In this document: in pieces, positions 1 to 64,000 of the stretch | How positions within the stretch are numbered: the stretch's first letter is position 1 | Layout: each line of letters opens with the position of its first letter | NCBI GenBank assembly: GCA_046331405.1 | Contig: JAXLQX010000010.1 | Span: forward strand, 50,551 to 114,550 | Direction: 5' to 3' | DNA: 64,000 nt | Source: Thermoanaerobaculia bacterium | Lineage (GTDB): Bacteria > Acidobacteriota > Thermoanaerobaculia > Multivoradales > SZUA-115 | Made by a program: the position numbers and the translations under genes | The notes under the pieces: model-generated | The model's database searches: none | What the model was told of the DNA's origin: nothing | The model's input: only the letters and a program-made list of their open reading frames with translations

Positions 1-2
1 TC

Positions 3-1424
3 CTCGAAGAGCTGGCCTTCGCCCTTTCCCAGGGCGCTGGTGCCGGGGCCGTGCCGGACACTCTCCAGGGCCTGCTGGCGGCGCGCATCGACCGCCTGCC
101 CGCCGAGGAGAAGCGGCTGCTGCAGATCTCCTCGGTGTTCGGCCGGGAAGTCTCGGTGGAGCTGCTGCAGAGGATCTACCCGGAGCCCGACGCCCTGGCA
201 GCGAGGCTCGAGGAGCTGCAGCGCCGGGAGCTGCTGCTGGTCTCGCCGGAAGCCGGGCCGGGGATGCTGCGCTTCCACCATGCGCTGGTCAAGGAGGTGA
301 CTTACCAGAGCCTCTTGCCTAGCCGTCGCCGCGCCCTTCACGGCGCCCTGGCCGAGGCCCTCGAAAGCCTCTACGCCGGGCGCCTCGAGGAGGTCTACGA
401 CCGGCTGATCTACCACTTCCCCCGTGCGGGCGAGCCCGCCCGCACGGTGCACTATCTGCGCCTCTTCGCCGAGCGGGCCGCAGCCCAATACGCCCACCAG
501 GAGGCCGCCGCGGCCCTCGAGCAGGCACTCCGGGAGGCCGCTGCCCTGCCCCGGCAGCCAGGCGCCCGGCTGCGCACCGAGCTCCGCCTGGAGCTCGCGG
601 AGTCGCTTTTCCCGCTCACGCGCTTCCGCGACACCCTCGAGGTGCTCGAGGCCGGGCGGGCCGATCTCGAGGCCTGTGCCGAGCCGCGCTTGCATGCCCA
701 GCACCATTTCTGGCTGGCCCACACCTACACCTACCTGGGGGACTCCGGCGCCACCCGCGAGCATGCCCAGATTGCCGTCACGGCGGCCGAGGAGGCGCAC
801 GACGAGGTGACCGCCGGCAAGGCCCACTACGTGCTCGGCCGCGACGCTTTCTGGACCGGCCAGTACGCCCAGGGCCTCAAGCACAGCCTGGAGGCGGCGG
901 TGCTGCTCGAGAGGGGCGGCGAGGCCTGGTGGCAGGGCCAGGCCCATTGGGTGGCCGGCTTCAACCATTTCGGCCTGGGCGAGCTCGGCCAGGCCCGCGA
1001 GGCCTTTCTGCGCACCCAGCGCATCGGCGAGGCGCTCGACGACTACCGGCTGGACCCTTCCTGGTCCCTCGGCTTCCTGCTCACCAGCCAGGGCGACGTG
1101 GCAGCCGGCCTCGCCCAATGTCGCCGCGCCGTGGCCCGCGCCCAGGACTCGCTCAACCGCGCCGTGGCCCTGGGCTTTCTCGGCCACAGCCAGCTCGCCG
1201 CCGGCGAGCCGGCCCAGGCGGTGGTGAGCCTCAGCGAGGCCACGGCCACTCTCCGCCAGGCCGGCATGCAACAGCTGCTCGCCTGGCTGGGCGCCTACCT
1301 CGCCCAGGCCCACCGCGCCCTCGGCCAGGCCGAAGAAGCCGAAGAGATCGCCGAAGAAGCCCTCGAAGCCGCCCGCGGCGCCGGCTTCCCGTTCGGCGAG
1401 GAGCTGCTGCGAGGGGGGCGGTAG
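3..1424 (+). CDS. STAND/AAA-type regulator, C-terminal TPR-rich part (5' end lies outside the window)
   Basis: The frame is open from the window edge (LEELAFALSQGAG... precedes the first Met). It contains LLAARIDRLPAEEKRLLQISSVFGREV followed by long Ala/Leu/Glu helical repeats. This arrangement is found C-terminal to the NTPase domain in MalT/LuxR-type and cyclase-associated AAA-TPR proteins. Confidence 0.7.
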   Translation, partial: LEELAFALSQGAGAGAVPDTLQGLLAARIDRLPAEEKRLLQISSVFGREVSVELLQRIYPEPDALAARLEELQRRELLLVSPEAGPGMLRFHHALVKEVTYQSLLPSRRRALHGALAEALESLYAGRLEEVYDRLIYHFPRAGEPARTVHYLRLFAERAAAQYAHQEAAAALEQALREAAALPRQPGARLRTELRLELAESLFPLTRFRDTLEVLEAGRADLEACAEPRLHAQHHFWLAHTYTYLGDSGATREHAQIAVTAAEEAHDEVTAGKAHYVLGRDAFWTGQYAQGLKHSLEAAVLLERGGEAWWQGQAHWVAGFNHFGLGELGQAREAFLRTQRIGEALDDYRLDPSWSLGFLLTSQGDVAAGLAQCRRAVARAQDSLNRAVALGFLGHSQLAAGEPAQAVVSLSEATATLRQAGMQQLLAWLGAYLAQAHRALGQAEEAEEIAEEALEAARGAGFPFGEELLRGGR

Positions 1425-1445
1425 GGAAGTGCTACCGTTCAGGCC

Positions 1446-1676
1446 GTGTTGGAAATCGCGAATCTCGAGGAGCCGGAGTGGGTAGCGTGGTACCTGCTGA
1501 GCCCCCAGGAGCGCTGGGAGGAATCGGCCCGCCTCTGGCACCACTACCTGGCGATGGGAGGCTCCCTTGATCCCGAGCCCGATTCGCAAAGCCCTTTCTA
1601 CGATCCGGCAACATCGAGTCGCCCACCTGTTGATGGGCGGCCAGGCCTGCGTGTTGTACGGCGCAGCGGAGTTTAG
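1446..1676 (+). CDS. small hypothetical protein (possibly a decayed partner of the following fragment)
   Basis: This is a GTG-initiated 76-codon ORF. The first two-thirds (EEPEWVAWYLLSPQERWEESARLWHHYLAMGGSLDPEPDSQSPF) has normal composition. The tail looks like read-through. No function can be assigned. Confidence 0.3.
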   Translation: MLEIANLEEPEWVAWYLLSPQERWEESARLWHHYLAMGGSLDPEPDSQSPFYDPATSSRPPVDGRPGLRVVRRSGV

Positions 1677-1752
1677 CCGCGAACTCGATCTGGTTTCAGT
1701 TGCTCTGAGATCTCGGGCTAACCGGAGCCGGTGGAGAAGAGAAGTCCCAGCC
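1567..1752 (+). pseudogene. truncated nucleotidyltransferase-like fragment
   Basis: A TTG-initiated frame reads IPSPIRKALSTIRQHRVAHLLMGGQACVLYGAAEFSRELDLV. This resembles the N-terminal GG...(S/T)xDLDL nucleotide-binding element of small MNT-type nucleotidyltransferases. Sensible sequence ends after about 45 residues, and the rest runs antisense into the permease 3' end. Confidence 0.25.
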
Positions 1753-4185
1753 TCACTCTCCCCGGATCGAGCGGATCGGGTCTGCCTCGGTGGCACGGCG
1801 GGCGGGGAGGAGGCAGGCGAGGGCCGCTACGGCGAGGAGGGCGAAGGTGGCGCCTACGAAGGCGAGCGGCTGCACGGTGGCCACCCCGGAGAGCTGGCTG
1901 GTCAAGGTCTTGGAGAACGCCGCCGCCAGCGCCCCGCCCACGAGAGCCCCCACCAGGCAAAGGCGTAGGCCCTGGCGGAGCACCAGCTGGAGGATCTCCC
2001 CCTTCTGGCTGCCCAGGGCCAGGCGGATGCCGAACTCCTGATGGCGAGTTGAGACAGTGTAGGTCAAGAGCCCGAATAGGCCAGATAGGGCTAAGCCCAC
2101 AGCCAGCGCAGCAGCGCCCGCAATGAGCCAGGCTATGAAGCGGAGGCGAGCGAGTGAGTCAGAGAGGATCTCGTCGCCGGTCCTCACCCGTGCGATCGGT
2201 AGCTGGGAGTCGAGGGCACGAACGAGCCTAGCTACTGCAGGGACGAGGTTGGAAGGAGGCAAGCTTGATCGGACGACCAGGCTGAACTCCAGAGAAGGCC
2301 ACTGCCTGTAAGGGAAATAGAGCTCAGGCTCGGGTGGTCTCTGAAGTCCGAGGTTGTGAACGTCGCCGACTACTCCAACCACGGTGGTCCAGCGTTCAAG
2401 AGAGCCTGGCAGTCCAAGAGCCAGATGGGTGCCAATCGGGTTGACATCGGGCCAATAGCGCCGGGCCGCGGCCTGGTTTACGACCGCGACAGGCGGCGAG
2501 CCAGACCAGTCCCCGCGCGCAAACGACCGGCCAGAGAGCAAGGCAACTCCCAGAGTGCGGAAGTAGTCATCACTGACGCGTCGGATCTCGGCGAAGGGAA
2601 GCTGGTCGCGCAGGCCCGGTGGCGGCGGATCGATTTGGAAGTTGCTGTTGTGCCCGGCTTCCAAGACCGGCAGCAGATCGATCAGGCCCACCTGTTTCAC
2701 TCCGGGCAGTTCTCGAACCGTATCGAGCAAGTCGCCAGAGAACTCCGCCATGCGGTCGGCCGAACTGTACGAATCTTCGGGTAGAACGAAGCGAAGGCTA
2801 TGCAGGTCCCGCGGTTCGAAACCGGGAGAAACTCGCCTCAGCGCCAGTAGATTGCCGACCAACAGGGTCGAACTGACGAGAACCGCCTGCGCAAGCCCCA
2901 CCTCTGCTATTGCCAGGGCGTTCCGCAGTCTTCTCCCGGTAGAATCGATTACTCCGTGAGCTCGCAACCCTCCCCCATCTTCAAGCCGTCTCGAGTAGAC
3001 CAAGGCCGGCGCTAGCCCACATAGTAGAGCCGCCGCTCCTGAGACGAAGGCAGAAGCAAGCGCCACCTGCCAGTTCAGGCTCGACTTGGCTAGTGCGGAG
3101 CCGCCCAGTGCGAGCAAAGGTCTGAGGAACCGAAGTGCCAGGGAGCTAGCGGTGAGTCCAATGAGAGTTGCAGGGATCGCAAGGACCAAACCGTCGCTGA
3201 GCAGCTCTGCAATCAGGCGGGTCCTAGATGCGCCCAGAGCGGCCCTCAGTTTGAGCTCCCGACTTCGCCCGGCGGCCCGCGAGAGCAAGAGGCTCGTTGT
3301 ATTGCCGCAGCTGATAGCGAGAACAAGTAGTGCTGCGAAGCTGCAGACTGCTAGTGGCAGTTGGACCTGGCCGTAGATCGCTTTTCGCAAGCCGAGAACT
3401 CGCACGCCACCCCATCGCATCGTATCTGGGTACTGGCGCACGATTTCGTCCGTGATCGCACTGAGCTCTTGTTGGGCAATGGAGGGCGTTGACCCAGGAG
3501 CTAGCCTTGCGATGACGGAGACCCAGTGATCTCCTCGCTGAACCCTGCGAGGTCCTTGGAGCACGAGAGGGCGCCAGGCGAGAGCGCTTGACGTGAGCGG
3601 AAGCTCGAACTCCGGCGGCATGACGCCGACGATCGTACAGGGACGTCCATCCAGTTGGAGCTTCCTGTCGAGCACGGCTGGGTCTGAAGCGAAGAGATCG
3701 CGCCAGAGCGAGTTGCTGATCAGGACCACGTTGTCTTGGCCGGGTAGCGCTTCGTCATCGTTGAACTGCCGCCCTAGCAGCGGCTGAGTACCCAGGACCC
3801 GTAGCAATGAAGGCGTAGCGAGAGCTCCTCGCAGGTAGCGAACGCCGTCCTCCGTGCCAATTCGGAAGTCGTGACTTGCGTATGCTCCGAACTCCGCAAG
3901 CGAGCGACTGGCGCGCTGCCAGTCTGCGAAGTTGGGAAGCGAAACAGCCCCAATGCCGGTACGGCCTTCGTAGGTGAAAGTCTCGAAAACCTGCACCAAT
4001 CGCCCGGGGTCGGCGTATGGAAGAGGAGCGACTAGGGCGAGCTGGAGCAGACTAAGCACCAAGCTCGCTCCGGCGACGCCCAGACCCAAGGAACCTCCGG
4101 CCGCAAGATCCATTCCAAAGCGAAGCCGGCGTAGTGTCGCTCTCAAGTGACCTAGGTACACCGATCTTTGCCTGCTCTCGTTCAT
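1753..4185 (-). CDS. ADOP-type duplicated FtsX/MacB-like ABC transporter permease (orphan, no adjacent ATPase)
   Basis: This is an 810-aa ORF with an ATG start. It has an N-terminal TM helix, a large extracytoplasmic domain and a 4-TM FtsX-like block, and this module occurs twice. The N-terminus (LGHLRATLRRLRFGMDLAAGGSLGL...) is typical of acidobacterial duplicated orphan permeases. Confidence 0.85.
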   Translation of the reverse strand: MNESRQRSVYLGHLRATLRRLRFGMDLAAGGSLGLGVAGASLVLSLLQLALVAPLPYADPGRLVQVFETFTYEGRTGIGAVSLPNFADWQRASRSLAEFGAYASHDFRIGTEDGVRYLRGALATPSLLRVLGTQPLLGRQFNDDEALPGQDNVVLISNSLWRDLFASDPAVLDRKLQLDGRPCTIVGVMPPEFELPLTSSALAWRPLVLQGPRRVQRGDHWVSVIARLAPGSTPSIAQQELSAITDEIVRQYPDTMRWGGVRVLGLRKAIYGQVQLPLAVCSFAALLVLAISCGNTTSLLLSRAAGRSRELKLRAALGASRTRLIAELLSDGLVLAIPATLIGLTASSLALRFLRPLLALGGSALAKSSLNWQVALASAFVSGAAALLCGLAPALVYSRRLEDGGGLRAHGVIDSTGRRLRNALAIAEVGLAQAVLVSSTLLVGNLLALRRVSPGFEPRDLHSLRFVLPEDSYSSADRMAEFSGDLLDTVRELPGVKQVGLIDLLPVLEAGHNSNFQIDPPPPGLRDQLPFAEIRRVSDDYFRTLGVALLSGRSFARGDWSGSPPVAVVNQAAARRYWPDVNPIGTHLALGLPGSLERWTTVVGVVGDVHNLGLQRPPEPELYFPYRQWPSLEFSLVVRSSLPPSNLVPAVARLVRALDSQLPIARVRTGDEILSDSLARLRFIAWLIAGAAALAVGLALSGLFGLLTYTVSTRHQEFGIRLALGSQKGEILQLVLRQGLRLCLVGALVGGALAAAFSKTLTSQLSGVATVQPLAFVGATFALLAVAALACLLPARRATEADPIRSIRGE

Positions 4186-4485
4186 TTCGCACGCACCGGA
4201 ACTACCGCTCCCAGCTCGAAGAGGTGACTGTGGTTCACGCGCTAGCCCACGAGTATAAAGCCTCGAGCCAAGGTCCGCAGTCCAACACGCCTTGGGTCAA
4301 TAAATTTCCGCTATAGGGAGTAGCGTTCAGGGCCGTGGTCAAGCAGGTACTCGAACTGTGGTCGCCCGTCTGGCTGCGCACCTCAGGGTTCGGGTTCCGG
4401 CTGGTGGGCGGAAACTGGTTAGCCCGCGTCAAGAAGGGCTGCGTGGAGGGGCAGATGAACGCAAGGGCGACCGATACAACACAGT

Positions 4486-4510
4486 CACCCCGAGACGCCC
4501 TCTCGGGGTG
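4486..4510 (-). terminator. hairpin terminator downstream of the precursor peptide gene
   Basis: There is a perfect 10-bp stem, CACCCCGAGA / TCTCGGGGTG, with a 5-nt loop. It sits about 55 nt after the precursor stop. On the minus strand it is followed by ACTGTGTTGTAT, which is only moderately T-rich. Confidence 0.5.
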
Positions 4511-4565
4511 ACTTCAGAAGAACTCGGCTCCAGTTGGAGAGTCAACGGCTCTAGAGCCACGTGAA

Positions 4566-4727
4566 CTACAGTGCAACTTCCTCAGCAGGAGACTTCGGTG
4601 CACAGGGGCAGCCGCAGTTGCAGCCGCTGTTGCCAGCCGCTCCGCCGGCGACATCGTCGAGATCGCCGTCGCTTACCTCGGTTACTTCCAGGCTTGCAAG
4701 CTCGTCTTTGGGATCCGTGTCGCCCAT
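4566..4727 (-). CDS. RiPP precursor peptide with a double-glycine leader and a Cys-rich core (53 aa, not in the ORF track)
   Basis: My translation is MGDTDPKDELASLEVTEVSDGDLDDVAGGAAGNSGCNCGCPCAPKSPAEEVAL. The ATG lies 5 nt after AAGGAGAA, and that RBS overlaps the TAA stop of the upstream radical SAM gene. The leader is acidic and ends in DDVAGG. The core contains CNCGCPC. A hairpin follows downstream. Confidence 0.75.
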   Translation of the reverse strand: MGDTDPKDELASLEVTEVSDGDLDDVAGGAAGNSGCNCGCPCAPKSPAEEVAL

Positions 4728-4738
4728 AGCACTTCTCC

Positions 4739-6286
4739 TTACGCTCTTGTACCCGTAGGTACGGTGGTGGAGTAACCGGTCAGATCGGCAATCGGCCTGA
4801 CCGAATCGTCAGCTTCGGAAGCCGAGGTCTCGGCAACAGGGAGAGCGAGCTTCCGCCCTGCATCGCGCTGAGAAGCGACCTGGCGCATTTCTGACTTGAA
4901 GTTGGCCCGAGTCCAAGTGCAGGGGGACTTGTCCGTCTCGAAGCGCTCAAGCGGACAGGACATCCCCAGGCAGGTGGGCAAAATCACGCATTTTTGGCAC
5001 TGTTGGTCACTCTCAAAGGCTGGTTCAGTCCAGAGTGCAAAGCGATCTAGGTCGAGCTTGAGCTCACCGTCCTCGTTCAGGGAGCCGACGACGTTCCGAG
5101 GATTCTTGTCGAGCTCGACTGTACACTTCATCACCTTGCCTGTGGCTCCAATGATGAAGTTGTAGGGTCTGGCTGCATAACAGACGTCAGCACCGAACCG
5201 CTGCAGTTCAGTCAGTCCGTCCGTAACGCTGAGGCCGCGCAATTGCGCTTCCTTGGTGAGTTCCTTTCTCAACTCGATGCCGTCGCGGTAGCCGCAGACT
5301 TGAAGATTCGCATCGTTGTCGCCGCCCCAGCGACCTACAGGCCTGAAGCGCAGCTTGTACCGTGGATCACTACTCAGCTCAGACTGAACAAGATCCAGAA
5401 ACGAACCGAGATGGGGATAGCTCTGCGGATTGAAATTCACGCGCAAGTCGACGGTGAAGTCCTCCTGGCGCTGGTGAAGCGAGACCAAGTTGGTCAGGAT
5501 GGTGTCGAAAGTCCCGCTGCCATCACGGGCAGGTCTGCTCTGGTTGTGGAACTCCGCTGGACCGTCGAGCGTGATCTGGTAGTGGAGGATTCTCCACGAC
5601 AGGAGCCGCTCAGCTACTTCCGGGGACAGCAGGTAGCCGTTTGTAGTCATCTTGCTGTTGAAGGCGAGGCCATTCTCACTTGCCAGATCGTGGAAGAATG
5701 GGGCGAGGTCGTCGATCGCCTCGATGCCGTAGAGAGGTTCGCCTCCGAACCAGTTGACAGCCAAGCTGGTTAGGGCGGGAAGGCGCTTCAGGGTTAGGTT
5801 CTTGATGCCGTTTCGGACCCACCGCTTCATGGTGCCGCGAGCGAAGTCCTCATAGCAGTAGGTACAGCGGAAGTTACAGTCTTCGGAAGAAAGGAGGATA
5901 AGTTGAAACGTATCGGTGCGAAATTGTTGCTGGCCGAAGCGAATCCGAAGTCGGCGATACTCATCGGCTCCCTGAGGGACCACGTAACCCTTGGTCGAAA
6001 GGTAATGCACCACTCCTGAGTCTCTTGCCTCGAAACCCTCGCGCACGAGCAGTCGCTCGACCGTTTCCTTGTCCTTGCGTGAGAAGATGCACATGGCACC
6101 AGAAAAGGTGTTCCAGAGTACGAGTCTGCCGTCCTCGGTCGTGGCGCGCACGGTGTAGCGGGAGGGCAGCCACCTCTGGGTGCGACCTCGAGCAGCGTCG
6201 ATCGCCGGCTCCGCATGTGCATTGGAGGCGAGTTCGTAGGGGGACTCTCTGAGGATGTCGAATTTTGTGGAAAGCCCTAAAGACAT
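4739..6286 (-). CDS. radical SAM/SPASM-domain peptide maturase with an N-terminal RRE-like extension
   Basis: It carries the CNFRCTYC (CxxxCxxC) cluster motif and a GGEP motif. The C-terminal region is Cys-rich (CYAARP...KCTVE...CQKCVILPTCLGMSCP...C), as in SPASM/twitch auxiliary-cluster domains. A leader-binding-like segment of about 110 aa precedes the core. GAGGAG lies 6 nt before the ATG. Confidence 0.9.
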   Translation of the reverse strand: MSLGLSTKFDILRESPYELASNAHAEPAIDAARGRTQRWLPSRYTVRATTEDGRLVLWNTFSGAMCIFSRKDKETVERLLVREGFEARDSGVVHYLSTKGYVVPQGADEYRRLRIRFGQQQFRTDTFQLILLSSEDCNFRCTYCYEDFARGTMKRWVRNGIKNLTLKRLPALTSLAVNWFGGEPLYGIEAIDDLAPFFHDLASENGLAFNSKMTTNGYLLSPEVAERLLSWRILHYQITLDGPAEFHNQSRPARDGSGTFDTILTNLVSLHQRQEDFTVDLRVNFNPQSYPHLGSFLDLVQSELSSDPRYKLRFRPVGRWGGDNDANLQVCGYRDGIELRKELTKEAQLRGLSVTDGLTELQRFGADVCYAARPYNFIIGATGKVMKCTVELDKNPRNVVGSLNEDGELKLDLDRFALWTEPAFESDQQCQKCVILPTCLGMSCPLERFETDKSPCTWTRANFKSEMRQVASQRDAGRKLALPVAETSASEADDSVRPIADLTGYSTTVPTGTRA

Positions 6287-6443
6287 GAGGAGCTCCTCGC
6301 TTCATGGACGACTTCTAAAGGGCAGTGAGTTGCCTTCGCAGTGGTCTGGCTGGCGTTGGGAAGTTTTGCAGACAATTGGCAGAGGCTGACATACGGGTGC
6401 GTGCCCGATGCACAGAACAGGGGGCTTGGGCAGGAAGTGCGGC

Positions 6444-7688
6444 TCATGCGGAAAGCGCCTGCCTACGGAGCGGGGAGTCGGAGAGGAGCGGAAGGAAGAC
6501 TTCGGAGCGCGCGAGACTTCTTACGTGATCAACAAGTCGGTCTCTGTTTTCGGCGACGGCTTGTCCGTGGAGCTCGCACGTAAGGCGCTCGAGCAGAGCA
6601 TCTGTATCGAGGCCTTCGAGAAGGCCACGGAAGAGTACGCGGTTGGTCTGGTTGAACTCGAAACCGATGATCTCCTTGCCCGACATGCGCTCCACTGCCT
6701 CTTCGATCGTCGTCAGTGGATCAACATCGGGGTGCTGTTTCCGCACCACCTCCAGGATCGCGGTGCGGTCCGGGAAGAGCATGAGCAAGGCCAGGAGATA
6801 GCGAGCTTGAGGGTCGGAGACCTTGCCCCGCAGGGAGGTGATGATGCGAGTTCGGCGCTCCCAATCGCAGGCTTCGCGGAAGATCTGGATGGGTTCACCA
6901 TAGAGTCGCTCAGCGTGCTCGTAGAACTGAGCGAGCAGGGCAGGATCCGCCTTCCGGCGCGTCAGTAGCGAGAACATGGCCAAGAGGGTTTCGAGGTCTC
7001 CACTTTCGACCAGCTGGTGAACGCGATCCTGGAGTCCCCCCAGGTGGCCGCGGAGCATTGCTTCCAAGAAGAGCAAGCGGCGGGCTCGGAGAGGGTCGTA
7101 GGCCTCGTGATCGACTGCCAGCCCAGGCAGAAGGTACTGGTACTGCGGTAAGTGATCACGATCCACGTATGTCCGAACCACGACTGTTACGGATGGAACC
7201 TCGAGGTGGAAGAGCTGATGGATGAGCCGTGAGCCGGAGTAGATCTCTCGAGTGTCTCCAGGGCCGAGGACCTCGGTCGAGGCTCTTTCGAGGGCGCCCA
7301 GGATGAGTCGCGAGTTAACCTTCTGGTGCGTGTGGAAGTGCCAATGGCTGTGTACACTGCCTCCAGCAAGCACCGAGAAGGCTCCGGTAAAGGAGTGCTC
7401 GTGAATCTCGGTGGTAGCTGAGTGCCAGAAGAGTACTTCGATGAAGAATCGCGGTGCCTGGAAGACCATGACTGGCGGTTCGCCGAAGAGGCTTCGGTTG
7501 GCGGGCTGATTGAGTCCCTGTCCCCGAGCGAAAGTCCAAGAGACGATCTCTTCGACCTTGATGTGCTGGGCAGGTGGCAGCTTCTCTAGCTCTGCCACCG
7601 CAAGGCGCGGAAAGACTTCTTCGTCATAGCTGTGATGCAGCCACTGCAGCTCGATCCGGGCCCCAAGATCCTGGAAGTAGGGGATCAT
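6444..7688 (-). CDS. cupin-like protein (3-His, thiol-dioxygenase-like motif) with a C-terminal helical domain of about 220 aa
   Basis: It starts at internal ATG 7688, with GGAGGCGAGG 4 nt upstream. TTEIHEHSFTGAF is followed 59 residues later by GSRLIHQLFH. This resembles the xIH(D/E)H...H metal site of cysteine/thiol dioxygenase cupins. The C-terminal half is helical and carries no motif I recognise. Confidence 0.55.
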   Translation of the reverse strand: MIPYFQDLGARIELQWLHHSYDEEVFPRLAVAELEKLPPAQHIKVEEIVSWTFARGQGLNQPANRSLFGEPPVMVFQAPRFFIEVLFWHSATTEIHEHSFTGAFSVLAGGSVHSHWHFHTHQKVNSRLILGALERASTEVLGPGDTREIYSGSRLIHQLFHLEVPSVTVVVRTYVDRDHLPQYQYLLPGLAVDHEAYDPLRARRLLFLEAMLRGHLGGLQDRVHQLVESGDLETLLAMFSLLTRRKADPALLAQFYEHAERLYGEPIQIFREACDWERRTRIITSLRGKVSDPQARYLLALLMLFPDRTAILEVVRKQHPDVDPLTTIEEAVERMSGKEIIGFEFNQTNRVLFRGLLEGLDTDALLERLTCELHGQAVAENRDRLVDHVRSLARSEVFLPLLSDSPLRRQALSA

Positions 7689-7819
7689 TGGACCTCGCCT
7701 CCGCTCCCGGCCCGAAGGGCGGAGCCGGGCCTGTCGAAAAGTAGCGACTGCCGGTAACACCCTTGACTGGAGACTTGCCGAGTCTTCCCGCTAGGTCTAC
7801 ACAAAGCTCGCGCAGGCAC
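7685..7819 (-). CDS. candidate 44-codon small ORF translationally coupled to the cupin gene
   Basis: GTG 7819 lies 7 nt after AAGGAGGA. The product is MPARALCRPSGKTRQVSSQGCYRQSLLFDRPGSALRAGSGGEVQ. Its TGA stop overlaps the cupin ATG (ATGA). GC3 is about 64% by hand count. Support is the strong RBS plus the coupling only. Confidence 0.25.
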   Translation of the reverse strand: MPARALCRPSGKTRQVSSQGCYRQSLLFDRPGSALRAGSGGEVQ

Positions 7820-8141
7820 AGGAGCTTCCTCCTTGCTGAGGAGAGACCTGAGGTCTGAAAAAAGCCAAGTGTAGTTTGAGAGAAGTGCAGGAATGTGTCA
7901 AGAGGAAGAGGAAAGATAAGTAGAGCGTAAAGAGTCGAAAATTAAGATATATAGAAGTATGTTTCGAGAGTCCTCTGGTTGACGTGGCCGCGATGGCAGC
8001 TCTGTGACCGTTAAGCTGATGTGCCTATCGGTGCACCTGCCACGGAGCAGGCTTTGTGCAGAAGGCGTTGTTCAAGCGGTTCCCAACTTCGTGGCGAGAG
8101 GGCGACGCCAGGGCAAGCCCGAAGTGAAGGCTCGAGGGCGT

Positions 8142-9209
8142 TCATTGCGACGCAGCTCGCTGGCTGGTGGCTGCCGCCGGAACAGGACTCGGCAGACCCC
8201 TGAAGGCCAAGTAGGCTTTGGCCTGTCCCCGCCCCACCTTCACATGGCTGAGCGCCCTCACCAGATGGCTGCTCTGGCCGATGGCTTCTCTTGGCCAGCG
8301 TTCGGGGGCTTCGAGGAGCGTTTCCGTTCCTGGCCAGTGGAGGAGGGCTTGGGCTTTTTCGTCGCAAGCCAGGCCTTGTTGAACGAGGTGGCGAAGGAGG
8401 CTCGACCACCGGGGTTCCCGGGGTGGTTGGTGGCGGAAGGAGGCTTCGAGGCCGGGGTGGGGGAGGATCTCGTCCCCATTCTCGCCGCCCAAGTCGAAGG
8501 AGAGGTGGCAGCGGTCGGCCCGGGGGAGGAGAGGGAGGAGCTCCTGCAGGCTCCGGACGGCGGCTTCGGGGCCGATTCGGCGGAGGGTTGAGAGAAGGAG
8601 GGCCGAGTCCTGGCTGGCGAGCTCGAGGCGGAGGGGTTGGCCGGGCCGGGAGGCGAGGTGGAAGAGGTAGAAGAGCTGCACGCCGGGAGGGAGGGCTTCG
8701 AGGCAGCGCTCGAGGAGCCGAGCTTCCCGGCCGCGCGTTCGGCGGCCGCGAAGGGCCGGCACCAGGACCTCGACGAGCCAAGAGGCTGGCACCGGGTCGG
8801 CGAGGCGGGCGCAGAGGATCGGCGGCGGTGCCGGTGTGGCGCCGGGAGGCAAGTCCAGCTCCAGCCAGAGGGCTGAAACCGGGTGGGGAAAGCCGAGCTC
8901 CTGCCAGCCTCCCCGGAGCAGGCGCTCGAGGGACGGAGAGCCGCTTGAGAGCTGGACTTGCGCGGCCTCTCCCGGATGCGCGAGGCGGGCGGCGAGGTCC
9001 ACCTGGGGTGCGCCAGTGGCGAGCCGGAGCTCGAGAATGCCCAGGCAGCCGGGTGGGAAGCTCTCGGCCGCAAGAGCCGCCTGCTCGAAAGCGGCCTTGC
9101 TCACCAGGGTGGGCGGCAGGTGGGGGCGGCAGCAGCGGAGCCAACTTGCCAGGGAGAAGGGCGCGGTGTCGGGCTCCGGGCGGGCGGGAGCGAGCGGCTT
9201 AGCCTCCAC
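8142..9209 (-). CDS. hypothetical protein, candidate tailoring enzyme for the Nif11-type peptide (start uncertain: GTG 9209 or ATG 9272)
   Basis: This is the only frame in 8.0-9.3 kb with balanced amino-acid composition and strongly GC-biased third positions. Its 5' end overlaps the 3' end of the upstream precursor gene. It shows five hairpin-like strand pairs alternating with helical segments (see findings). I recognise no catalytic motif. Confidence 0.65.
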   Translation of the reverse strand: MEAKPLAPARPEPDTAPFSLASWLRCCRPHLPPTLVSKAAFEQAALAAESFPPGCLGILELRLATGAPQVDLAARLAHPGEAAQVQLSSGSPSLERLLRGGWQELGFPHPVSALWLELDLPPGATPAPPPILCARLADPVPASWLVEVLVPALRGRRTRGREARLLERCLEALPPGVQLFYLFHLASRPGQPLRLELASQDSALLLSTLRRIGPEAAVRSLQELLPLLPRADRCHLSFDLGGENGDEILPHPGLEASFRHQPPREPRWSSLLRHLVQQGLACDEKAQALLHWPGTETLLEAPERWPREAIGQSSHLVRALSHVKVGRGQAKAYLAFRGLPSPVPAAATSQRAASQ

Positions 9210-9453
9210 CCCCGGTTCCCGGCGGAGGCGGATCACCGGTCCAGCCTCCGGCAACGTCTTCCAGTTCCTCATCCGACAGCTCGGTGGTGCTTTCCGCCAG
9301 GCCGCGGGCTTCGTCGAGGGTCAGGTGGAAGCCCAGGGACGCGGCGTGGGCCCTCCAGGCTTCTGCGTCGAGGCCGAGGGCCGAGAGCTGTTCGAGGAGC
9401 CGAGGGTCGGCGCGTAGGGCCGCGGAGAATCGGTCGAGGTCTTGAATGGACAT
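9199..9453 (-). CDS. Nif11-like leader peptide family RiPP precursor (84 aa)
   Basis: It starts at an internal ATG with GAGGAGGA upstream. The product is MSIQDLDRFSAALRADPRLLEQLSALGLDAEAWRAHAASLGFHLTLDEARGLAESTTELSDEELEDVAGG followed by the core WTGDPPPPGTGGGG. The layout matches Nif11-type leaders, which end in LSDEELExVAGG. Confidence 0.8.
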   Translation of the reverse strand: MSIQDLDRFSAALRADPRLLEQLSALGLDAEAWRAHAASLGFHLTLDEARGLAESTTELSDEELEDVAGGWTGDPPPPGTGGGG

Positions 9454-9558
9454 CTTCGAGTCCTCCTCTCTCGTTGATTCCGGAGAAGCTAGTATGCCAG
9501 AGAATCGCCGCTTTGACTCTCTCGGTTCGGCTTGACCCCTGGTTCGGGGGAGGGCATC

Positions 9559-10707
9559 ATGCGTGGGCTCGAATCCGAAGCCCGAGGTGCCCGGTTGAAC
9601 CGTGATGGCAGGCTGATCCCGACGATCCACCCGGACATTGCCCAGGCCGAGACGCTGCCGGGCTGGTTCTATGGCGATACCTGCGTGTACCAGCAGGCGA
9701 AGGAGCGCGTCTTCGCCCGCTCCTGGCAGTGGCTGGGAGACCTCGACCGCTTGAAGGTGCCCGGCCAGGTGTGGCCGATGGTGCTACTGGAAGGTTGCCT
9801 GAACGAGCCGCTGCTCTTGACCCGGGACACCCGAGACGAGATCCACCTGCTGTCGAACGCCTGCACCCACCGAGGCAACCTGGTGTGCGAGGGCGAGGGT
9901 GTGGAGCAGGTGCTGCGCTGCCGCTACCATGGGCGGCGCTTCGGGTTGGACGGCCGGTTTCTCTCCATGCCGGAGTTCGAGGGTGTGGCGGGCTTCCCGT
10001 CGCCGGTGGACGACCTTCCCGCCGTGCCCTGGCGGCGCTGGCGGAAGTTCCTCTTCGCTGCCGTGGAGCCGGCCTTCCCGTTCGAGGAGTGGCTCGCCGA
10101 GGTGGAGGCCCGGGTGGGCTGGCTGCCGATCGAGCAGGCCACGTTCGATGCCTCGCGCTCCCGGGACTACCTGGTCCAGGCCAACTGGGCGCTCTACTGC
10201 GACAACTACCTCGAAGGCTTCCACATCCCCTACGTCCACGTGGGGCTCGCTGGCGCCCTGGACTACGGTAGCTACACCACCGAGCTCTATCGCTTCACGA
10301 ACCTGCAGCTGGGGGTGGCGAGCGGTGGAGAGGATGTGTTCTCGCCGCCGCCCGGCCACCCGGATCACGGCAAGGCGATCGCCGGCTACTACTACTGGCT
10401 CTTCCCCAACCTGATGCTCAACTTCTATCCCTGGGGCATCTCGGTGAACGTGGTGAAGCCGCTCGGGCCGGAGCGCACCAAGGTCTCCTTCTTGACCTAT
10501 GTGTGGGACCCGGAGCGCCTCGACCGCGGAGCCGGCTCCTCTCTCGATCGCGTGGAGCGCGAGGACGAGGCGATCGTTGAGGCCACGCAAACGGGGGTGC
10601 GTTCGCATTTCTACGGCCGGGGTCGGTACTCGGTGAAGCGCGAGGAGGGGGTGCACCACTTCCACCGCCTGCTGGTGGCGGCCCTGGGCTCGGGCGGGAC
10701 CGGATGA
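9559..10707 (+). CDS. Rieske [2Fe-2S] non-heme iron oxygenase, alpha-subunit type
   Basis: The Rieske motif is CTHRGNLV...CRYHGRRF. The mononuclear iron motif is NWALYCDNYLEGFHIPYVH. It starts at ATG 9559, after GGGGGAGGG. The track's 9532 start is a TTG extension. Confidence 0.85.
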   Translation: MRGLESEARGARLNRDGRLIPTIHPDIAQAETLPGWFYGDTCVYQQAKERVFARSWQWLGDLDRLKVPGQVWPMVLLEGCLNEPLLLTRDTRDEIHLLSNACTHRGNLVCEGEGVEQVLRCRYHGRRFGLDGRFLSMPEFEGVAGFPSPVDDLPAVPWRRWRKFLFAAVEPAFPFEEWLAEVEARVGWLPIEQATFDASRSRDYLVQANWALYCDNYLEGFHIPYVHVGLAGALDYGSYTTELYRFTNLQLGVASGGEDVFSPPPGHPDHGKAIAGYYYWLFPNLMLNFYPWGISVNVVKPLGPERTKVSFLTYVWDPERLDRGAGSSLDRVEREDEAIVEATQTGVRSHFYGRGRYSVKREEGVHHFHRLLVAALGSGGTG

Positions 10708-10714
10708 GCGGGGG

Positions 10715-12088
10715 ATGAGCGAGCCTTCGAAACAGCCGGAGCTGGTGCGAGGACTTTCGAGCTGGGATGCGGTGCTCCTCGCCGTGGGTGGGGTGGTGGG
10801 AACGGGGATCTTCCTCACCTCCGCAGACCTCGCCAAGGCCCTGCCCAGCCAGGGCTGGATTCTCGGGGTGTGGGTAGCGGGAGGGCTCTTGACCTTGGCG
10901 GGAGCCCTCACCTACGCCGAGATGGGGGCGATGTACCCGCGGGCCGGCGGCCTCTATCAGTTCCTGAAAGAGGCGTACGGGCCGTTCTGGGCTTTCCTCT
11001 ACGGCTGGACGGCCTTCACGGTGATCATGACCGGGGGCATCGCGGCGATCGCCGCCGGCTTCGGCGAGTACTTGGGCTCGTTCCTGCCGTTCTTCGGCTC
11101 GAGCCATGTGCTGGTGTCGGTGCCGCTCGGCTCCTTCACCTGGACCCTGGCGGGCAACCAGCTGGCGGCGGTGCTGGCCATTCTCTTTCTCACCGTGGTG
11201 AACGTCCTGGGCCTGAGGCAGGGGGCCGGCCTCCAGAACCTGCTCACGGTGGCCAAGGTGGGCTCGTTGGTGGTGTTCGTGGTGGCGGGCTTTTGGGTGA
11301 AGCCGGTCGCTGCCGCGAACCTTCCTGCGGCGGGGGCCCCCACGGGCTTGCTGACCGCCTTCGGCGTGGGCATGGTGGCGGTGCTCTGGACCTACGATGG
11401 CTGGTACGGCCTCACCTTCACCGCGGGAGAGATGCGCAAGCCGGAGCGCAGCCTGCCGATCGGGCTGGTGGTGGGAACGCTGATCGTGGCGGCCCTGTAC
11501 GTAGGCTTGCAGCTGGTGTACTTCCGGGCGCTGTCGCTCGCCGAGATGGCCGCGAGCCCGCGGGTGGGTGAGGCCGCGGCGGGCGCCCTCTTCGGGCCCA
11601 CGGGAGCGCGGCTGCTCTCGGCGGTGGTGCTCCTCTGCTCCTTCGGCTGCCTTTCGGCCACCATCCTCTACAGCGCTCGCATCTACCTGCCCATGGCCCA
11701 GGACGGCGTGTTCTTCCGCGCCGTGGGGGCCGTGCATCCCCGCTACCGCACGCCCCACGTCTCGCTCTGGGCGCAGAGCCTGTGGGCCCTGCTGCTGGCG
11801 GTTTCGGGCACCTTCACCCAGCTCTACACCTACGTGGTGTTCGCCAGCGTGCTGTTCCAGATGGCGACCGGCGGGGCTCTCTTCCGCCTCCGGGCCCTCT
11901 ACCCGCAGCTGCCCCGCCCCTACCGGGTGTGGGGCTATCCCTGGGTGCCGGCGCTCTTCATCCTGGCCTCCCTGCTGCTGGTGGCCAACACCCTCCTCGA
12001 GCGCCCGGTCGAGTCCCTGATCGGCCTCGGCCTGGTCGCCCTCGGCGTGCCGGCCTACTTCGCCTGGCGGCGCAAGGCTGGGGCTTAG
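10715..12088 (+). CDS. APC-family amino acid permease
   Basis: This 457-aa polytopic membrane protein starts SWDAVLLAVGGVVGTGIFLTSADLA...LTYAEMGAMYPRAGGLYQFL. That N-terminal signature is typical of amino acid/polyamine/organocation transporters. Confidence 0.85.
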   Translation: MSEPSKQPELVRGLSSWDAVLLAVGGVVGTGIFLTSADLAKALPSQGWILGVWVAGGLLTLAGALTYAEMGAMYPRAGGLYQFLKEAYGPFWAFLYGWTAFTVIMTGGIAAIAAGFGEYLGSFLPFFGSSHVLVSVPLGSFTWTLAGNQLAAVLAILFLTVVNVLGLRQGAGLQNLLTVAKVGSLVVFVVAGFWVKPVAAANLPAAGAPTGLLTAFGVGMVAVLWTYDGWYGLTFTAGEMRKPERSLPIGLVVGTLIVAALYVGLQLVYFRALSLAEMAASPRVGEAAAGALFGPTGARLLSAVVLLCSFGCLSATILYSARIYLPMAQDGVFFRAVGAVHPRYRTPHVSLWAQSLWALLLAVSGTFTQLYTYVVFASVLFQMATGGALFRLRALYPQLPRPYRVWGYPWVPALFILASLLLVANTLLERPVESLIGLGLVALGVPAYFAWRRKAGA

Positions 12089-54002: not shown

Positions 54003-62957
<8,955 letters not shown>

Positions 62958-62988
62958 GGCGGGCTCCTGGCAGGCAGAGAGGTTTCGC

Positions 62989-64000
62989 TCAGGCTTCCTC
63001 GGCGGCGAGCAGCTCGGCGAGCAGGGCTTCGACCGCGCCATCGGAGAGCCCGTCGAGGTCGGGGCGGAGATCCGCGGCAGCGACGGCGGGGCTCGGCGTC
63101 GCCTCGGGCGCGGCCGTTCCCGCGCCCCGGACAGCGAGTTCGGCCGCCAGCTCGGCCAGCACGGAACGCTCGAAGACCGCGGCGAGCGGCAGCTCCACCC
63201 CGAAGCCGAGGCGCAGGCGGGACACCAGCTGGGTGGCGAGCAGCGAGTGGCCGCCGAGGGCGAAGAAGTCGTCCTGCCGGCCGACGTCGCGCACTCCCAG
63301 AAGCTCGCTCCAGAGGCCGGCCAGGGCCTCTTCGAGCGGGCCCCGGGGCGGCTCGAGCTGCTCGCCCGGCCCGGTTGTGGGCTCTGGATGGGGCAGCGCT
63401 GTGAGGTCCACCTTGCCGGTCGCCCCGAGCGGCAGCCTCTCGAGCACCACCACGAAGCTCGGCACCAGGTGCTGGGGCAGCCGCGCCCCGAGTTCGGCCT
63501 TGAGGCCCTCGGAGGACAGCCCCTCCTGGCCACAGACGTAGGCGGCCAGGCGCTTGCCGGCGAGCGGATCGTCGAGCATCTTGACCGCCGCGGCGCTCAC
63601 TCCGGGCAGGCTTTGGAGCTGGCTTTCGATCTCGCCGGGCTCGATCCTGAAGCCGCGGATCTTCACCTGGCGGTCCAGCCGGCCGAGGTACTCCACCACC
63701 CCGTCCGGGCGCCAGCGCACGCGGTCCCCGGTCGCGTAGAGCCGCTCGCCGGGAGTGGCGGCATGGGGGTCCGGCCGGAACTTCTCGGCGGTGGCCGCGG
63801 GGCGGCCCAGGTAGCCCCGGGCGAGGCCGGCACCGCCCAGGAAGAGCTCACCGGGCACGCCGATCGGCTGCAGGGCGAACCGGGAGCCGAGCACCAGGCC
63901 CCGAGTGGCCCCGATCGGCCGCCCGATCGGCAGCGGGTCTCGCACCTCGGCCGGGGAGTCCATGGCGAACGTATGCGAGAAGGTGGTGCTCTCGGTGGGG
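62989..64000 (-). CDS. non-ribosomal peptide synthetase, 3' part (A-T plus docking-like tail; continues beyond the window)
   Basis: The frame is open to the window edge (…PTESTTFSHTFAMDSP). Motifs present are GELFLGGAGLARGYLG, QVKIRGFRIEPGEIE, LPLGATGKVD and FFALGGHSLLATQL. The acidic C-terminal tail is DGAVEALLAELLAAEEA. Confidence 0.9.
   Translation of the reverse strand, partial: PTESTTFSHTFAMDSPAEVRDPLPIGRPIGATRGLVLGSRFALQPIGVPGELFLGGAGLARGYLGRPAATAEKFRPDPHAATPGERLYATGDRVRWRPDGVVEYLGRLDRQVKIRGFRIEPGEIESQLQSLPGVSAAAVKMLDDPLAGKRLAAYVCGQEGLSSEGLKAELGARLPQHLVPSFVVVLERLPLGATGKVDLTALPHPEPTTGPGEQLEPPRGPLEEALAGLWSELLGVRDVGRQDDFFALGGHSLLATQLVSRLRLGFGVELPLAAVFERSVLAELAAELAVRGAGTAAPEATPSPAVAAADLRPDLDGLSDGAVEALLAELLAAEEA

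What the first reader, a model, noticed from the sequence alone, without database searches (positions are those of the whole stretch)
4566..4727. Unannotated 53-aa double-glycine-leader, CxCxCxC-core peptide directly behind a radical SAM/SPASM maturase
Seen directly: translating the minus strand after the rSAM stop gives MGDTDPKDELASLEVTEVSDGDLDDVAGG|AAGNSGCNCGCPCAPKSPAEEVAL. At 53 aa it falls below the 60-aa cutoff of the supplied ORF track. The ATG lies 5 nt after AAGGAGAA, and this RBS overlaps the TAA of the rSAM gene. A perfect 10-bp hairpin follows. The leader is strongly acidic and ends in DDVAGG. The 24-aa putative core has four Cys at every second position and two N-x-x-C spacings (NSGC, NCGC). 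Established knowledge: GG-type leaders are removed by C39-peptidase transporters or related proteases. RRE-containing rSAM/SPASM enzymes install thioether crosslinks on Cys-rich cores in sactipeptides and ranthipeptides. NxxC repeats are substrates of beta-thioether-forming rSAM enzymes. Inference: this peptide is the substrate of the adjacent enzyme. I do not recognise the CNCGCPC core as a described family.
Basis: partly seen in the sequence, partly recalled or inferred. Interest (0 to 1): 0.85.

Follow-up and report, generated by a model that had tools for sequence, protein, structure and literature searches.

The report
Cysteine-rich peptide precursor beside radical SAM enzyme
The 53-codon gene is real: it encodes the precursor of a modified peptide made by the neighbouring radical SAM enzyme, and it belongs to a widespread but unstudied family in soil Acidobacteria and myxobacteria.

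Summary
ORF 4566-4727(-) encodes the stated 53-aa peptide. Its AAGGAGAA ribosome-binding site overlaps the stop of the radical SAM (rSAM) gene. A 13-bp terminator hairpin follows it.

It is not a chance ORF. In 23-24 of 24 genome loci with a 48-58% identical rSAM and a GG-type peptide, a small same-strand ORF lies just downstream. Its leader is conserved, (F/L)EVTELDDxxLExVAGG, and its core is short and rich in Asn and Cys. A profile search found 74 such peptides, none carrying a functional name.

Across 55 dereplicated cores, 105 of 179 Cys have Asn at -3 (21.9 expected, z=20). NxxC is therefore the family motif, often interleaved as N-x-N-C-x-C.

The enzyme has CX3CX2C, all eight SPASM cysteines, and a CteB-like fold with an N-terminal RRE-like domain. 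It reaches no curated family cutoff.

Best reading: a thioether-crosslinked RiPP, Asn to Cys, in the manner of NxxcB. The chemistry is inferred.

An unexpected extra is the upstream 414-aa gene. It folds like thiol dioxygenases and recurs in these clusters. An ADOP permease and a cyclase/TPR regulator also recur. The window encodes no C39 transporter, although relatives have one.

Verdict: new variant of a known kind.

The parts
4566..4727 (-). Precursor peptide gene, 53 aa plus stop. The leader is residues 1-29 (4641-4727) and ends in DDVAGG. The core is residues 30-53 (4569-4640): AAGNSGCNCGCPCAPKSPAEEVAL.
   Evidence: Translation. Leader-HMM hit E=1.4e-8. 74 family members found by profile search. 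Synonymous-versus-non-synonymous pattern against P0150.
4733..4740 (-). Shine-Dalgarno AAGGAGAA, 5 nt upstream of the ATG. It overlaps the rSAM stop codon, which suggests translational coupling.
   Evidence: Read directly from the sequence.
4739..6286 (-). Radical SAM/SPASM peptide maturase, 515 aa. Residues about 37-121 form an RRE-like N-terminal domain. The rSAM cluster motif is C137-x3-C141-x2-C144. The auxiliary-cluster cysteines are C331, C369, C388, C430, C433, C439, C444 and C456.
   Evidence: Pfam Radical_SAM. Best NCBIfam hit is TIGR04463 at 196 bits, below its 525 cutoff. These cysteines are invariant in 120 homologues. AF2 model pLDDT 78. Foldseek top hits are CteB at E=1.4e-16 over 465 columns, then TigE, anSME and SuiB.
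4483..4513 (-). Intrinsic-terminator-like hairpin with a 13-bp stem and a T-rich tail, about 53 nt after the peptide stop. It probably marks the end of the operon.
6444..7688 (-). Conserved 414-aa partner protein. The start is probably M at 7688; the ORF list gives a GTG at 7760. It has N-terminal helices, a cupin barrel of thiol-dioxygenase fold and an all-helical C-terminal domain. H96, H98, H113, H157 and H161 are invariant.
   Evidence: No Pfam or NCBIfam hit. 166 word-index homologues, all 'hypothetical'. AF2 pLDDT 88. All top 50 Foldseek PDB hits are thiol dioxygenases: MDO 6xb9 at E=1.4e-6, then CDO, ADO, PCO and ergothioneine dioxygenase. It lies beside rSAM plus peptide in L011, L012, L015, L017, L028, L081-84 and L087-89.
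1753..4185 (-). ADOP-family duplicated MacB/FtsX-type permease, 810 aa. It lies downstream of the terminator and may serve export or self-protection.
   Evidence: TIGR03434 at 719 bits, above its 622 cutoff. An ADOP gene is adjacent in L012, L082 (two copies), L083/84, L088/89 and L090.
1..1424 (+). C-terminal AAA/TPR part of a large regulator of the zinc-ribbon, adenylate/guanylate cyclase, AAA_16, TPR type. The window start cuts it off.
   Evidence: TIGR03903-like and TPR hits. It is 48-54% identical to regulators beside homologous rSAM clusters in L086, L087, L016 and L013.
7780..7980 (-). AT-rich intergenic region upstream of the partner gene. It is the likely promoter region of the partner-rSAM-peptide operon.
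   Evidence: Lowest GC of the region, 0.56. The sequence was read. The sigma-70 consensus scan found no site, so this is inference only.

Best explanation
A three-gene operon on the minus strand makes a crosslinked ribosomal peptide (RiPP). The genes are the dioxygenase-fold protein (7688->6444), the rSAM/SPASM maturase (6286->4739) and the precursor (4727->4566). A terminator at 4513-4483 ends the operon.

The proposed steps are as follows.
1. The enzyme's N-terminal RRE-like domain binds the acidic leader through its conserved (F/L)EVTE(L/V)xDxxLDDVAGG segment.
2. The rSAM cluster generates a 5'-deoxyadenosyl radical. The radical abstracts a hydrogen from the residue three positions N-terminal of a Cys, which is usually Asn.
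3. The Cys sulfur, held on a SPASM auxiliary cluster, closes a thioether ring.
4. In this peptide the predicted rings are N33-C36 and N37-C40. C38 and C42 are left over, for further rings onto G35/G39, a disulfide, metal binding or oxidation.
5. The leader is cut after Gly-Gly by a C39-peptidase ABC exporter. Relatives encode one next door, but this window does not.

The thiol-dioxygenase-fold partner probably adds an oxygen-dependent tailoring step. The ADOP permease probably serves export or self-protection.

Shown here: the gene, its conservation, the linkage, the motifs and the folds. Inferred: every chemical step.

The confidence of 0.6 is for the whole statement. That the ORF is a genuine rSAM-modified precursor I rate at about 0.93. 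An Asn-Cys thioether at either carbon I rate at about 0.7, and the beta-carbon form specifically at about 0.5.
For: Gene and coupling.

Conserved enzyme-then-peptide synteny: 23-24 of 24 GG-type genome loci and the metagenome loci L081-L089.

Peptide family: 74 members, with E-values down to 6e-12 in a database of 5.8 billion proteins.

Asn at -3 of Cys: 171 of 293 Cys against 36.5 expected, z=25.7. After dereplication: 105 of 179 against 21.9 expected, with a maximum of 38 in 5000 shuffles.

Enzyme: rSAM and SPASM cysteines are invariant. The fold is closest to the thioether synthase CteB, including its N-terminal domain. The nearest NCBIfam families are all Cys-peptide rSAM/SPASM maturases.

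Precedent: NxxcB forms Asn-C-beta to Cys-S thioethers at NxxC motifs (PMC9389541).

Leader: the GG-leader consensus is met, with V-4, L-7, D-8 and V-12. NHLP-type C39 exporters TIGR03796/03797 or Peptidase_C39 ABC genes are adjacent in L001, L013, L016, L081, L086 and L090.

Partner: fold and linkage.
Against: There are no product data, so the crosslink type, the acceptor atom and the ring pattern are all unproven.

Homology to NxxcB itself could not be tested because no sequence was available.

About 40% of family Cys lack Asn at -3. Some cores use N-x-x-x-C, or have no Asn spacing at all, as in GSGCGCGCGC. In the non-GG subgroup the rule is weaker: CNNC and WCDDCSC.

The window has no C39 exporter.

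The dioxygenase-fold protein also sits beside Cys-free, Asn-rich peptides with a B12-rSAM in L090 and L011. Its target therefore need not be sulfur.

An O2-dependent enzyme next to an O2-sensitive rSAM is unexplained.

There is no expression evidence.
Confidence: 0.6

Rival explanations
1. The system is the same, but the rings are sactionine (sulfur to alpha-carbon) links, or use a different acceptor atom. It would then be a sactipeptide-type product, as QmpB makes (Asn C-alpha to Cys S), rather than a beta-thioether ranthipeptide. Gly35 and Gly39 could then also act as acceptors, giving four interleaved rings.
For: QmpB links Asn C-alpha to Cys S, and GggB links Cys to Gly/Ser C-alpha (PMC11851443). 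Every Cys in this core has Asn or Gly at -3. Gly can only accept at the alpha carbon. Fold and sequence do not separate alpha- from beta/gamma-forming enzymes.
Against: The strong preference for Asn at -3 rather than any residue mirrors the NxxcB substrate. No positive evidence favours the alpha carbon.
Confidence: 0.2
2. The rSAM performs other chemistry, such as epimerisation, C-C or C-O crosslinking at Asn, or Cys oxidation. The CxCxCxC cysteines would stay as free thiols that bind a metal, making the product a small metallophore or metallothionein-like peptide.
For: CxC spacing is strongly enriched, with C at +/-2 at z=17. CxC clusters are classic Cu/Zn/Cd ligands (general knowledge). The partner protein and a B12-rSAM also occur with Cys-free, Asn-rich cores, so Asn rather than Cys may be the shared target. 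SPASM enzymes catalyse many reaction types; TigE and SuiB are among the top structural hits.
Against: Much of the CxC pattern follows from interleaved NxxC motifs. The nearest curated families are Cys-peptide maturases. The SPASM-rSAM loci examined always have Cys in the downstream core.
Confidence: 0.12
3. The ORF is a chance open frame in GC-rich DNA and is not expressed.
For: It is short, and GC-rich genomes carry many spurious ORFs.
Against: It has a strong RBS, a terminator, in-frame conservation with synonymous substitutions, and a position-conserved family across phyla.
Confidence: 0.02

Closest known systems
NxxcA/NxxcB (streptococcal NxxC RaS-RiPP; Asn-C-beta to Cys-S thioether)
   Same: The cores are built from N-x-x-C motifs, and a SPASM-type radical SAM enzyme is encoded next to the precursor. 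The proposed chemistry is the same (PMC9389541).
   Different: The phyla differ: Acidobacteriota and Myxococcota rather than Streptococcus. There is no shp/rgg quorum-sensing context. The leader is a double-glycine type with the EVTELDD motif. The motifs are interleaved as N-x-N-C-x-C. There are extra partners: a dioxygenase-fold protein, an ADOP permease and a cyclase/TPR regulator. Enzyme orthology was not tested.
Ranthipeptide/SCIFF maturases (CteB, PapB) and sactisynthases
   Same: The architecture is RRE, rSAM, then SPASM. CteB is the best structural match and the best PDB sequence match. PapB, SCIFF and CcpM models hit the enzyme. The substrates are Cys-rich.
   Different: All of these models score far below their cutoffs. 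Identity to CteB is about 16%. The acceptor here would be Asn at -3, rather than Asp/Glu (PapB) or Thr/other residues (CteB).
NCBIfam TIGR04463 (rSAM_vs_C_rich), Clo7bot maturase and CefB
   Same: These are the best-scoring curated enzyme families (E=1e-57 to 1e-40) and align almost full length.
   Different: The score is 196 bits against a cutoff of 525, so the enzyme is not a member. The precursor matches none of their peptide models.
NHLP/Nif11-type double-glycine leader systems with C39-peptidase ABC exporters (TIGR03796/TIGR03797)
   Same: The leader ends in Gly-Gly with the usual hydrophobic and acidic spacing. Relatives carry exactly these exporters next door. A true Nif11-leader precursor lies 4.5 kb away in the window.
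   Different: The leader is short (29 aa) and is neither a Nif11 nor an NHLP domain. The window has no exporter.
Thiol dioxygenases (CDO, 3-mercaptopropionate dioxygenase, ADO, plant cysteine oxidase), compared with the partner protein
   Same: The fold matches: N-terminal helices plus a cupin barrel, and all 50 top PDB hits belong to this family. The H-x-H motif plus a later His is invariant, and Gly replaces the cupin Glu (and direct reading of the sequence).
   Different: No sequence-level match was found. The protein has an extra 215-residue helical domain. It sits in a RiPP cluster. It also occurs with Cys-free peptides.

Membership tests
Double-glycine leader peptide | Gly-Gly at -2/-1, hydrophobic residues at -4, -7 and -12, and an acidic residue at -8 | tested here: met
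   G28 G29, V26 (-4), L23 (-7), D22 (-8) and V18 (-12). The pattern is conserved in 20 aligned relatives.
Double-glycine leader peptide | A C39-peptidase ABC transporter encoded with the precursor | tested here: not met
   tblastn with a PCAT from L013 finds nothing in the 64-kb window. Related loci L001, L013, L016, L081, L086 and L090 do have one.
rSAM/SPASM RiPP maturase (sacti- or ranthipeptide synthase type) | CX3CX2C radical SAM cluster motif | tested here: met
   C137, C141 and C144 are invariant in 120 homologues. Pfam PF04055.
rSAM/SPASM RiPP maturase (sacti- or ranthipeptide synthase type) | SPASM cysteines for two auxiliary clusters | tested here: met
   C331, then C369-x13-G-x4-C388, then C430-x2-C433-x5-C439-x4-C444, then C456. 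All are invariant. The last spacing is x4 rather than the usual x3.
rSAM/SPASM RiPP maturase (sacti- or ranthipeptide synthase type) | N-terminal RiPP recognition element | tested here: met
   In the AF2 model, residues 37-121 form strands plus three helices at pLDDT 78-93. The Foldseek alignment to CteB spans 465 columns of a 440-residue chain, so it covers the N-terminal domain. No Pfam PqqD hit.
rSAM/SPASM RiPP maturase (sacti- or ranthipeptide synthase type) | A thioether crosslink in the product | not testable with these tools
   Needs MS/MS and NMR of the modified peptide.
NxxC RaS-RiPP (NxxcA/NxxcB) | Repeated N-x-x-C motif in the core | tested here: met
   NSGC and NCGC in this peptide. 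Family-wide, Asn at -3 of Cys has z=25.7 and z=20.2.
NxxC RaS-RiPP (NxxcA/NxxcB) | A maturase orthologous to NxxcB | not tested
   No NxxcB sequence could be obtained; the supplements are not held.
NxxC RaS-RiPP (NxxcA/NxxcB) | shp/rgg quorum-sensing operon context in streptococci | tested here: not met
   The neighbours are a dioxygenase-fold protein, an ADOP permease and a cyclase/TPR regulator. Relatives are Acidobacteriota and Myxococcota.
NCBIfam TIGR04463 and other curated rSAM maturase families | Score at or above the curated cutoff | tested here: not met
   The best score is 195.9 bits against a cutoff of 525. All 25 listed families fall below their cutoffs.
NCBIfam TIGR04149 (GG_sam_targ_CFB precursor) | Score at or above 25 bits | tested here: not met
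   14.6 bits, E=0.023, on the leader region only. Only 3 of 20 relatives hit weakly.
Thiol dioxygenase (CDO/ADO/PCO), for the partner protein | The CDO-type cupin fold | tested here: met
   All top 50 Foldseek hits are thiol dioxygenases. Best E=1.4e-6, target-normalised TM 0.62-0.64.
Thiol dioxygenase (CDO/ADO/PCO), for the partner protein | A three-His iron site | tested here: inconclusive
   H96, H98 and H157 are invariant with CDO-like spacing. The model coordinates could not be inspected, and there is no sequence-level alignment to a CDO.
Thiol dioxygenase (CDO/ADO/PCO), for the partner protein | A match to Pfam CDO_I or PCO_ADO | tested here: not met
   No Pfam or NCBIfam family at E<=1.

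The most novel reading that the evidence does not exclude
The 414-aa partner would be the first thiol-dioxygenase-fold enzyme used as a RiPP tailoring enzyme. It would oxidise a peptide cysteine, a thioether sulfur or an asparagine in a core first crosslinked by an oxygen-sensitive radical SAM enzyme. The product would be an interleaved Asn-Cys thioether ladder carrying oxidised sulfur. The large unnamed family it belongs to (about 2000 clusters at 50% identity, some fused to LanC-like, JmjC or methyltransferase domains) would then be a general, unrecognised class of peptide-modifying oxygenases.
Probability: 0.3. Interest if true: 0.8.

Novelty: new variant of a known kind. Interest (0 to 1): 0.62.

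Why it matters
The finding defines a large, uncurated RiPP family in poorly studied soil phyla: Thermoanaerobaculia, Holophagales, Polyangium and Sorangium. The family has a clear and testable substrate rule, Asn three residues before Cys, often interleaved.

If the rule reflects Asn-Cys thioethers, NxxC chemistry extends well beyond streptococci. It would also predict compact, laddered bicyclic peptides of 6-13 residues, which are attractive scaffolds.

The recurrent thiol-dioxygenase-fold partner has no family name, although it has about 2000 sequence clusters. It offers a direct route to new peptide oxidation chemistry.

The finding also shows that gene calls with a 60-aa floor miss the key gene of such clusters.

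Tried and rejected
These attempts led nowhere or were set aside.
- Spurious ORF: rejected on conservation and codon evidence.
- Further copies of the peptide in the window: none. The search found only a Nif11-leader precursor that shares the ELSDEELEDVAGG end.
- Curated family membership: the peptide and the enzyme fall below every NCBIfam and Pfam cutoff.
- Sequence-level link of the partner protein to solved structures: nothing useful, either with the full profile or with the cupin-domain profile. Only the fold comparison worked.
- NxxcB sequence for a direct comparison: no supplement is held.
- Literature search for FlmE/OhkG/CefB: only unrelated papers. Searches for Acidobacteria, Thermoanaerobaculia, ranthipeptide and thiol-dioxygenase RiPP papers found no characterised member.
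- Mobile-element borders of the low-GC stretch: no tRNA and no flanking repeats.
- Rfam elements in 1-12000: none.
- Sigma-70 promoter scan: no site.
- Extra domains of the 700-750-aa fused relatives of the partner: not the 350-aa neighbour protein, by BLAST.
- One search used an out-of-frame range and is void. The 39% match of the 376-aa protein to L013 rests.
- The idea that the partner acts on 'spare' Cys lacking Asn at -3: not supported. Most cores linked to the partner have Asn or Asp at -3 of every Cys, and two linked peptides have no Cys at all.

Full report
**Observation.** The minus strand of 4566-4727 translates to MGDTDPKDELASLEVTEVSDGDLDDVAGGAAGNSGCNCGCPCAPKSPAEEVAL. AAGGAGAA lies at 4740-4733 and shares its first two bases with the TAA stop of the 515-aa radical SAM gene (4739-6286). 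It sits 5 nt before the ATG. A 13-bp perfect stem with a 5-nt loop and a T-rich tail lies at 4513-4483. The region folds better than 199 of 200 shuffles. GC by codon position in the ORF is 0.70/0.52/0.65, like its neighbours and unlike the overlapping frames.

**Is it a gene?** The radical SAM protein has more than 2200 relatives at E<=1e-20. The closest are 53-72% identical and are named only 'radical SAM protein', mostly from Thermoanaerobaculia. I fetched 80 genome loci. In L001-L020, L022, L028 and L037 the enzyme is 48-58% identical. There, a small ORF on the same strand starts within roughly 150 nt of the enzyme's stop, in a few loci overlapping it. L011 was added by hand. These ORFs share a leader, (F/L)EVTELDDxxLExVAGG, and carry short cores such as NGNCSC, NNNCIC, GNYNCGC, NNGCNIGC and NPGCNPSCTNPGCNPGC.

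A profile of 20 such peptides found 74 proteins in a 5.8-billion-protein collection. None has a functional name. The nearest is P0150, with core AAGNSGCNCGCPCSPKEPELPVE. It follows an enzyme fragment 85% identical to the window's. Against the window gene it has 18 identical codons, 16 synonymous-only differences and 16 non-synonymous differences. The non-synonymous changes lie outside the GG-NSGCNCGCPC block. The ORF is a conserved, protein-coding precursor gene.

**The motif.** In 88 cores, 171 of 293 Cys have Asn at -3, against 36.5 expected from within-core shuffles (z=25.7). Cys at +/-2 (z=17) and Asn at -1 (z=13) are also enriched. After dereplication to 55 cores the count is 105 of 179 against 21.9 expected, with a maximum of 38 in 5000 shuffles. 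The consensus N-x-N-C-x-C is two interleaved NxxC motifs. The window core has N33-x-x-C36 and N37-x-x-C40, while C38 and C42 have Gly at -3.

A second enzyme subgroup occurs in Sphingomonadales, Luteibacter, Myxococcus and Blastocatellia. Its precursors lack the GG site (...EFEIIELEDRLELAGRCNGRCD and ...LEFVAWCDDCSC). They share the (F/L)E(I/V)xEL(E/D)xxLE leader segment but follow the Asn rule less strictly.

**The enzyme.** C137-x3-C141-x2-C144 and eight further cysteines in SPASM spacing are invariant in 120 homologues. The AF2 model has pLDDT 78. It shows an N-terminal domain of strands plus three helices at residues 37-121. Foldseek ranks CteB first (E=1.4e-16, 465 columns), then TigE, anSME and SuiB. 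By sequence, CteB is also the best PDB hit, but only at E=5e-12.

The best curated families are TIGR04463, the Clo7bot maturase, CefB, the geopeptide maturase and PapB. All score far below their cutoffs. The precursor reaches no NCBIfam or Pfam cutoff. The enzyme is therefore an RRE-rSAM-SPASM peptide maturase outside every curated family.

**Context.** The stretch from about 1750 to 8100 has 56-62% GC, against 68-73% around it. No tRNA or repeat borders were found. Upstream of the enzyme lies a 414-aa protein (start probably at 7688) with no family match. Its AF2 model (pLDDT 88) has N-terminal helices, a cupin barrel and a helical domain. All 50 best PDB fold matches are thiol dioxygenases: 3-mercaptopropionate dioxygenase, CDO, ADO, plant cysteine oxidase and ergothioneine dioxygenase. 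H96, H98 and H157 are invariant. Sequence searches against the PDB find nothing.

This protein lies beside enzyme plus precursor in L011, L012, L015, L017, L028, L081-L084 and L087-L089. An exhaustive profile search gives 2027 clusters at E<=1e-3. Some of these are fused to LanC-like, JmjC, methyltransferase or TPR domains. However, in L090 and L011 it sits next to Cys-free, Asn-rich GG peptides and a B12-radical SAM gene. Its target is therefore open.

The downstream ADOP permease is a true TIGR03434 member. It recurs next to these clusters in six of twelve partner-containing loci. The ORF cut by the window start is 48-54% identical to the cyclase-AAA-TPR regulators beside clusters in L086, L087, L016 and L013.

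No C39-peptidase exporter exists in the window. NHLP-type exporters, or Peptidase_C39 ABC genes, flank the clusters in L001, L013, L016, L081, L086 and L090.

**Mechanism.** The best reading has four steps: leader binding by the N-terminal domain, radical hydrogen abstraction at the residue three before Cys, thioether closure by a cluster-bound thiolate, and Gly-Gly cleavage with export. The only direct precedent is NxxcB, which forms Asn-C-beta to Cys-S links at NxxC motifs and tolerates Ala, Gln and Asp as acceptors (PMC9389541). QmpB links Asn C-alpha to Cys S (PMC11851443), so the acceptor atom is not settled.

I rate 'genuine rSAM-modified precursor' at about 0.93. I rate 'Asn-Cys thioether, of either carbon' at about 0.7, and the beta-thioether form specifically at about 0.5. 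Rival readings are alpha-thioether rings, other rSAM chemistry with metal-binding thiols, and a chance ORF, which is rejected.

**Comparison and novelty.** The system works like the NxxC, ranthipeptide and sactipeptide systems. It fails the membership tests that could be run: score cutoffs, genomic context and taxonomy. Orthology to NxxcB was not testable. No paper describing this family was found in the open library. It is a new variant of a known kind. The thiol-dioxygenase-fold partner is the most original element.

Noticed in passing
window 9199-9453 (-) and 8142-9272 (-); L013 13298-13465 (-) and 12235-13275 (-): A second RiPP-like pair. The first gene is an 84-aa Nif11-leader precursor (TIGR03798, 48.8 bits, above cutoff) that ends ...ELSDEELEDVAGG|WTGDPPPPGTGGGG. 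It is followed by a ~376-aa protein with no family. L013 has the same pair near its rSAM cluster, with core DTAWPPV and a protein 39% identical.
   Followed up: partly
window ~1750-8100: This stretch has 56-62% GC, against 68-73% in the flanks. It covers the ADOP permease, the precursor, the rSAM and the dioxygenase-fold gene. That may point to horizontal acquisition, but no tRNA or repeat borders were found.
   Followed up: partly
window 6444-7688 (-); P0315-P0464: The thiol-dioxygenase-fold plus helical-domain protein belongs to a large unnamed family. It has 2027 clusters at E<=1e-3 in the 50%-identity library. Fusions occur to LanC-like (P0446), JmjC (P0391), leucine carboxyl methyltransferase (P0356) and TPR (P0343) domains.
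   Followed up: partly
L090 8900-9019 (-); L011 3173-3286 (+): GG-leader peptides with Cys-free, Asn-rich cores (ETEDSGNNNNNNPQLA and DAKPDDNNNIINNPN) lie beside a B12-binding radical SAM gene and the same dioxygenase-fold protein. This is a sister system with different chemistry.
   Followed up: no
L011 7570-7703 (+) and 7782-8360 (+): The precursor ends in ...NNNGGC and is followed by a PF02441 flavoprotein (EpiD/LanD type). Many family cores end in C-x-C at the C-terminus. Some members may therefore undergo C-terminal Cys decarboxylation.
   Followed up: partly
L021, L023, L025-L036, L038, L048: A non-GG subgroup in Sphingomonadales, Luteibacter, Fulvimonas, Myxococcus and Blastocatellia. 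The gene order is rSAM, a 370-aa unknown protein, a precursor (…EFEIIELEDRLELAGRCNGRCD) and a membrane protein with an HELGH motif that may be the leader protease.
   Followed up: partly
window 1-1424 (+); L013 8978-12319; L086 896-4165; L087 7466-10750: A large regulator of the zinc-ribbon, adenylate/guanylate cyclase, AAA_16, TPR type recurs beside these clusters. Small cNMP-binding proteins often accompany it (L081, L087, L090, L013, L016, L001). This suggests cyclic-nucleotide control of production.
   Followed up: partly
window 54003-63533 (-): A 3176-aa non-ribosomal peptide synthetase with two modules and condensation, adenylation, methyltransferase, carrier and thioesterase domains. 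It is unrelated to the finding.
   Followed up: no
L083 6242-7294; L087 6254-7303; L088 3819-4925; L016, L015, L013, L007, L003, L004: A ~350-aa protein with no family is often translationally coupled to the dioxygenase-fold gene or lies near the precursor. The window lacks it. L081 and L028 instead carry a stand-alone Lant_dehydr_C protein.
   Followed up: no
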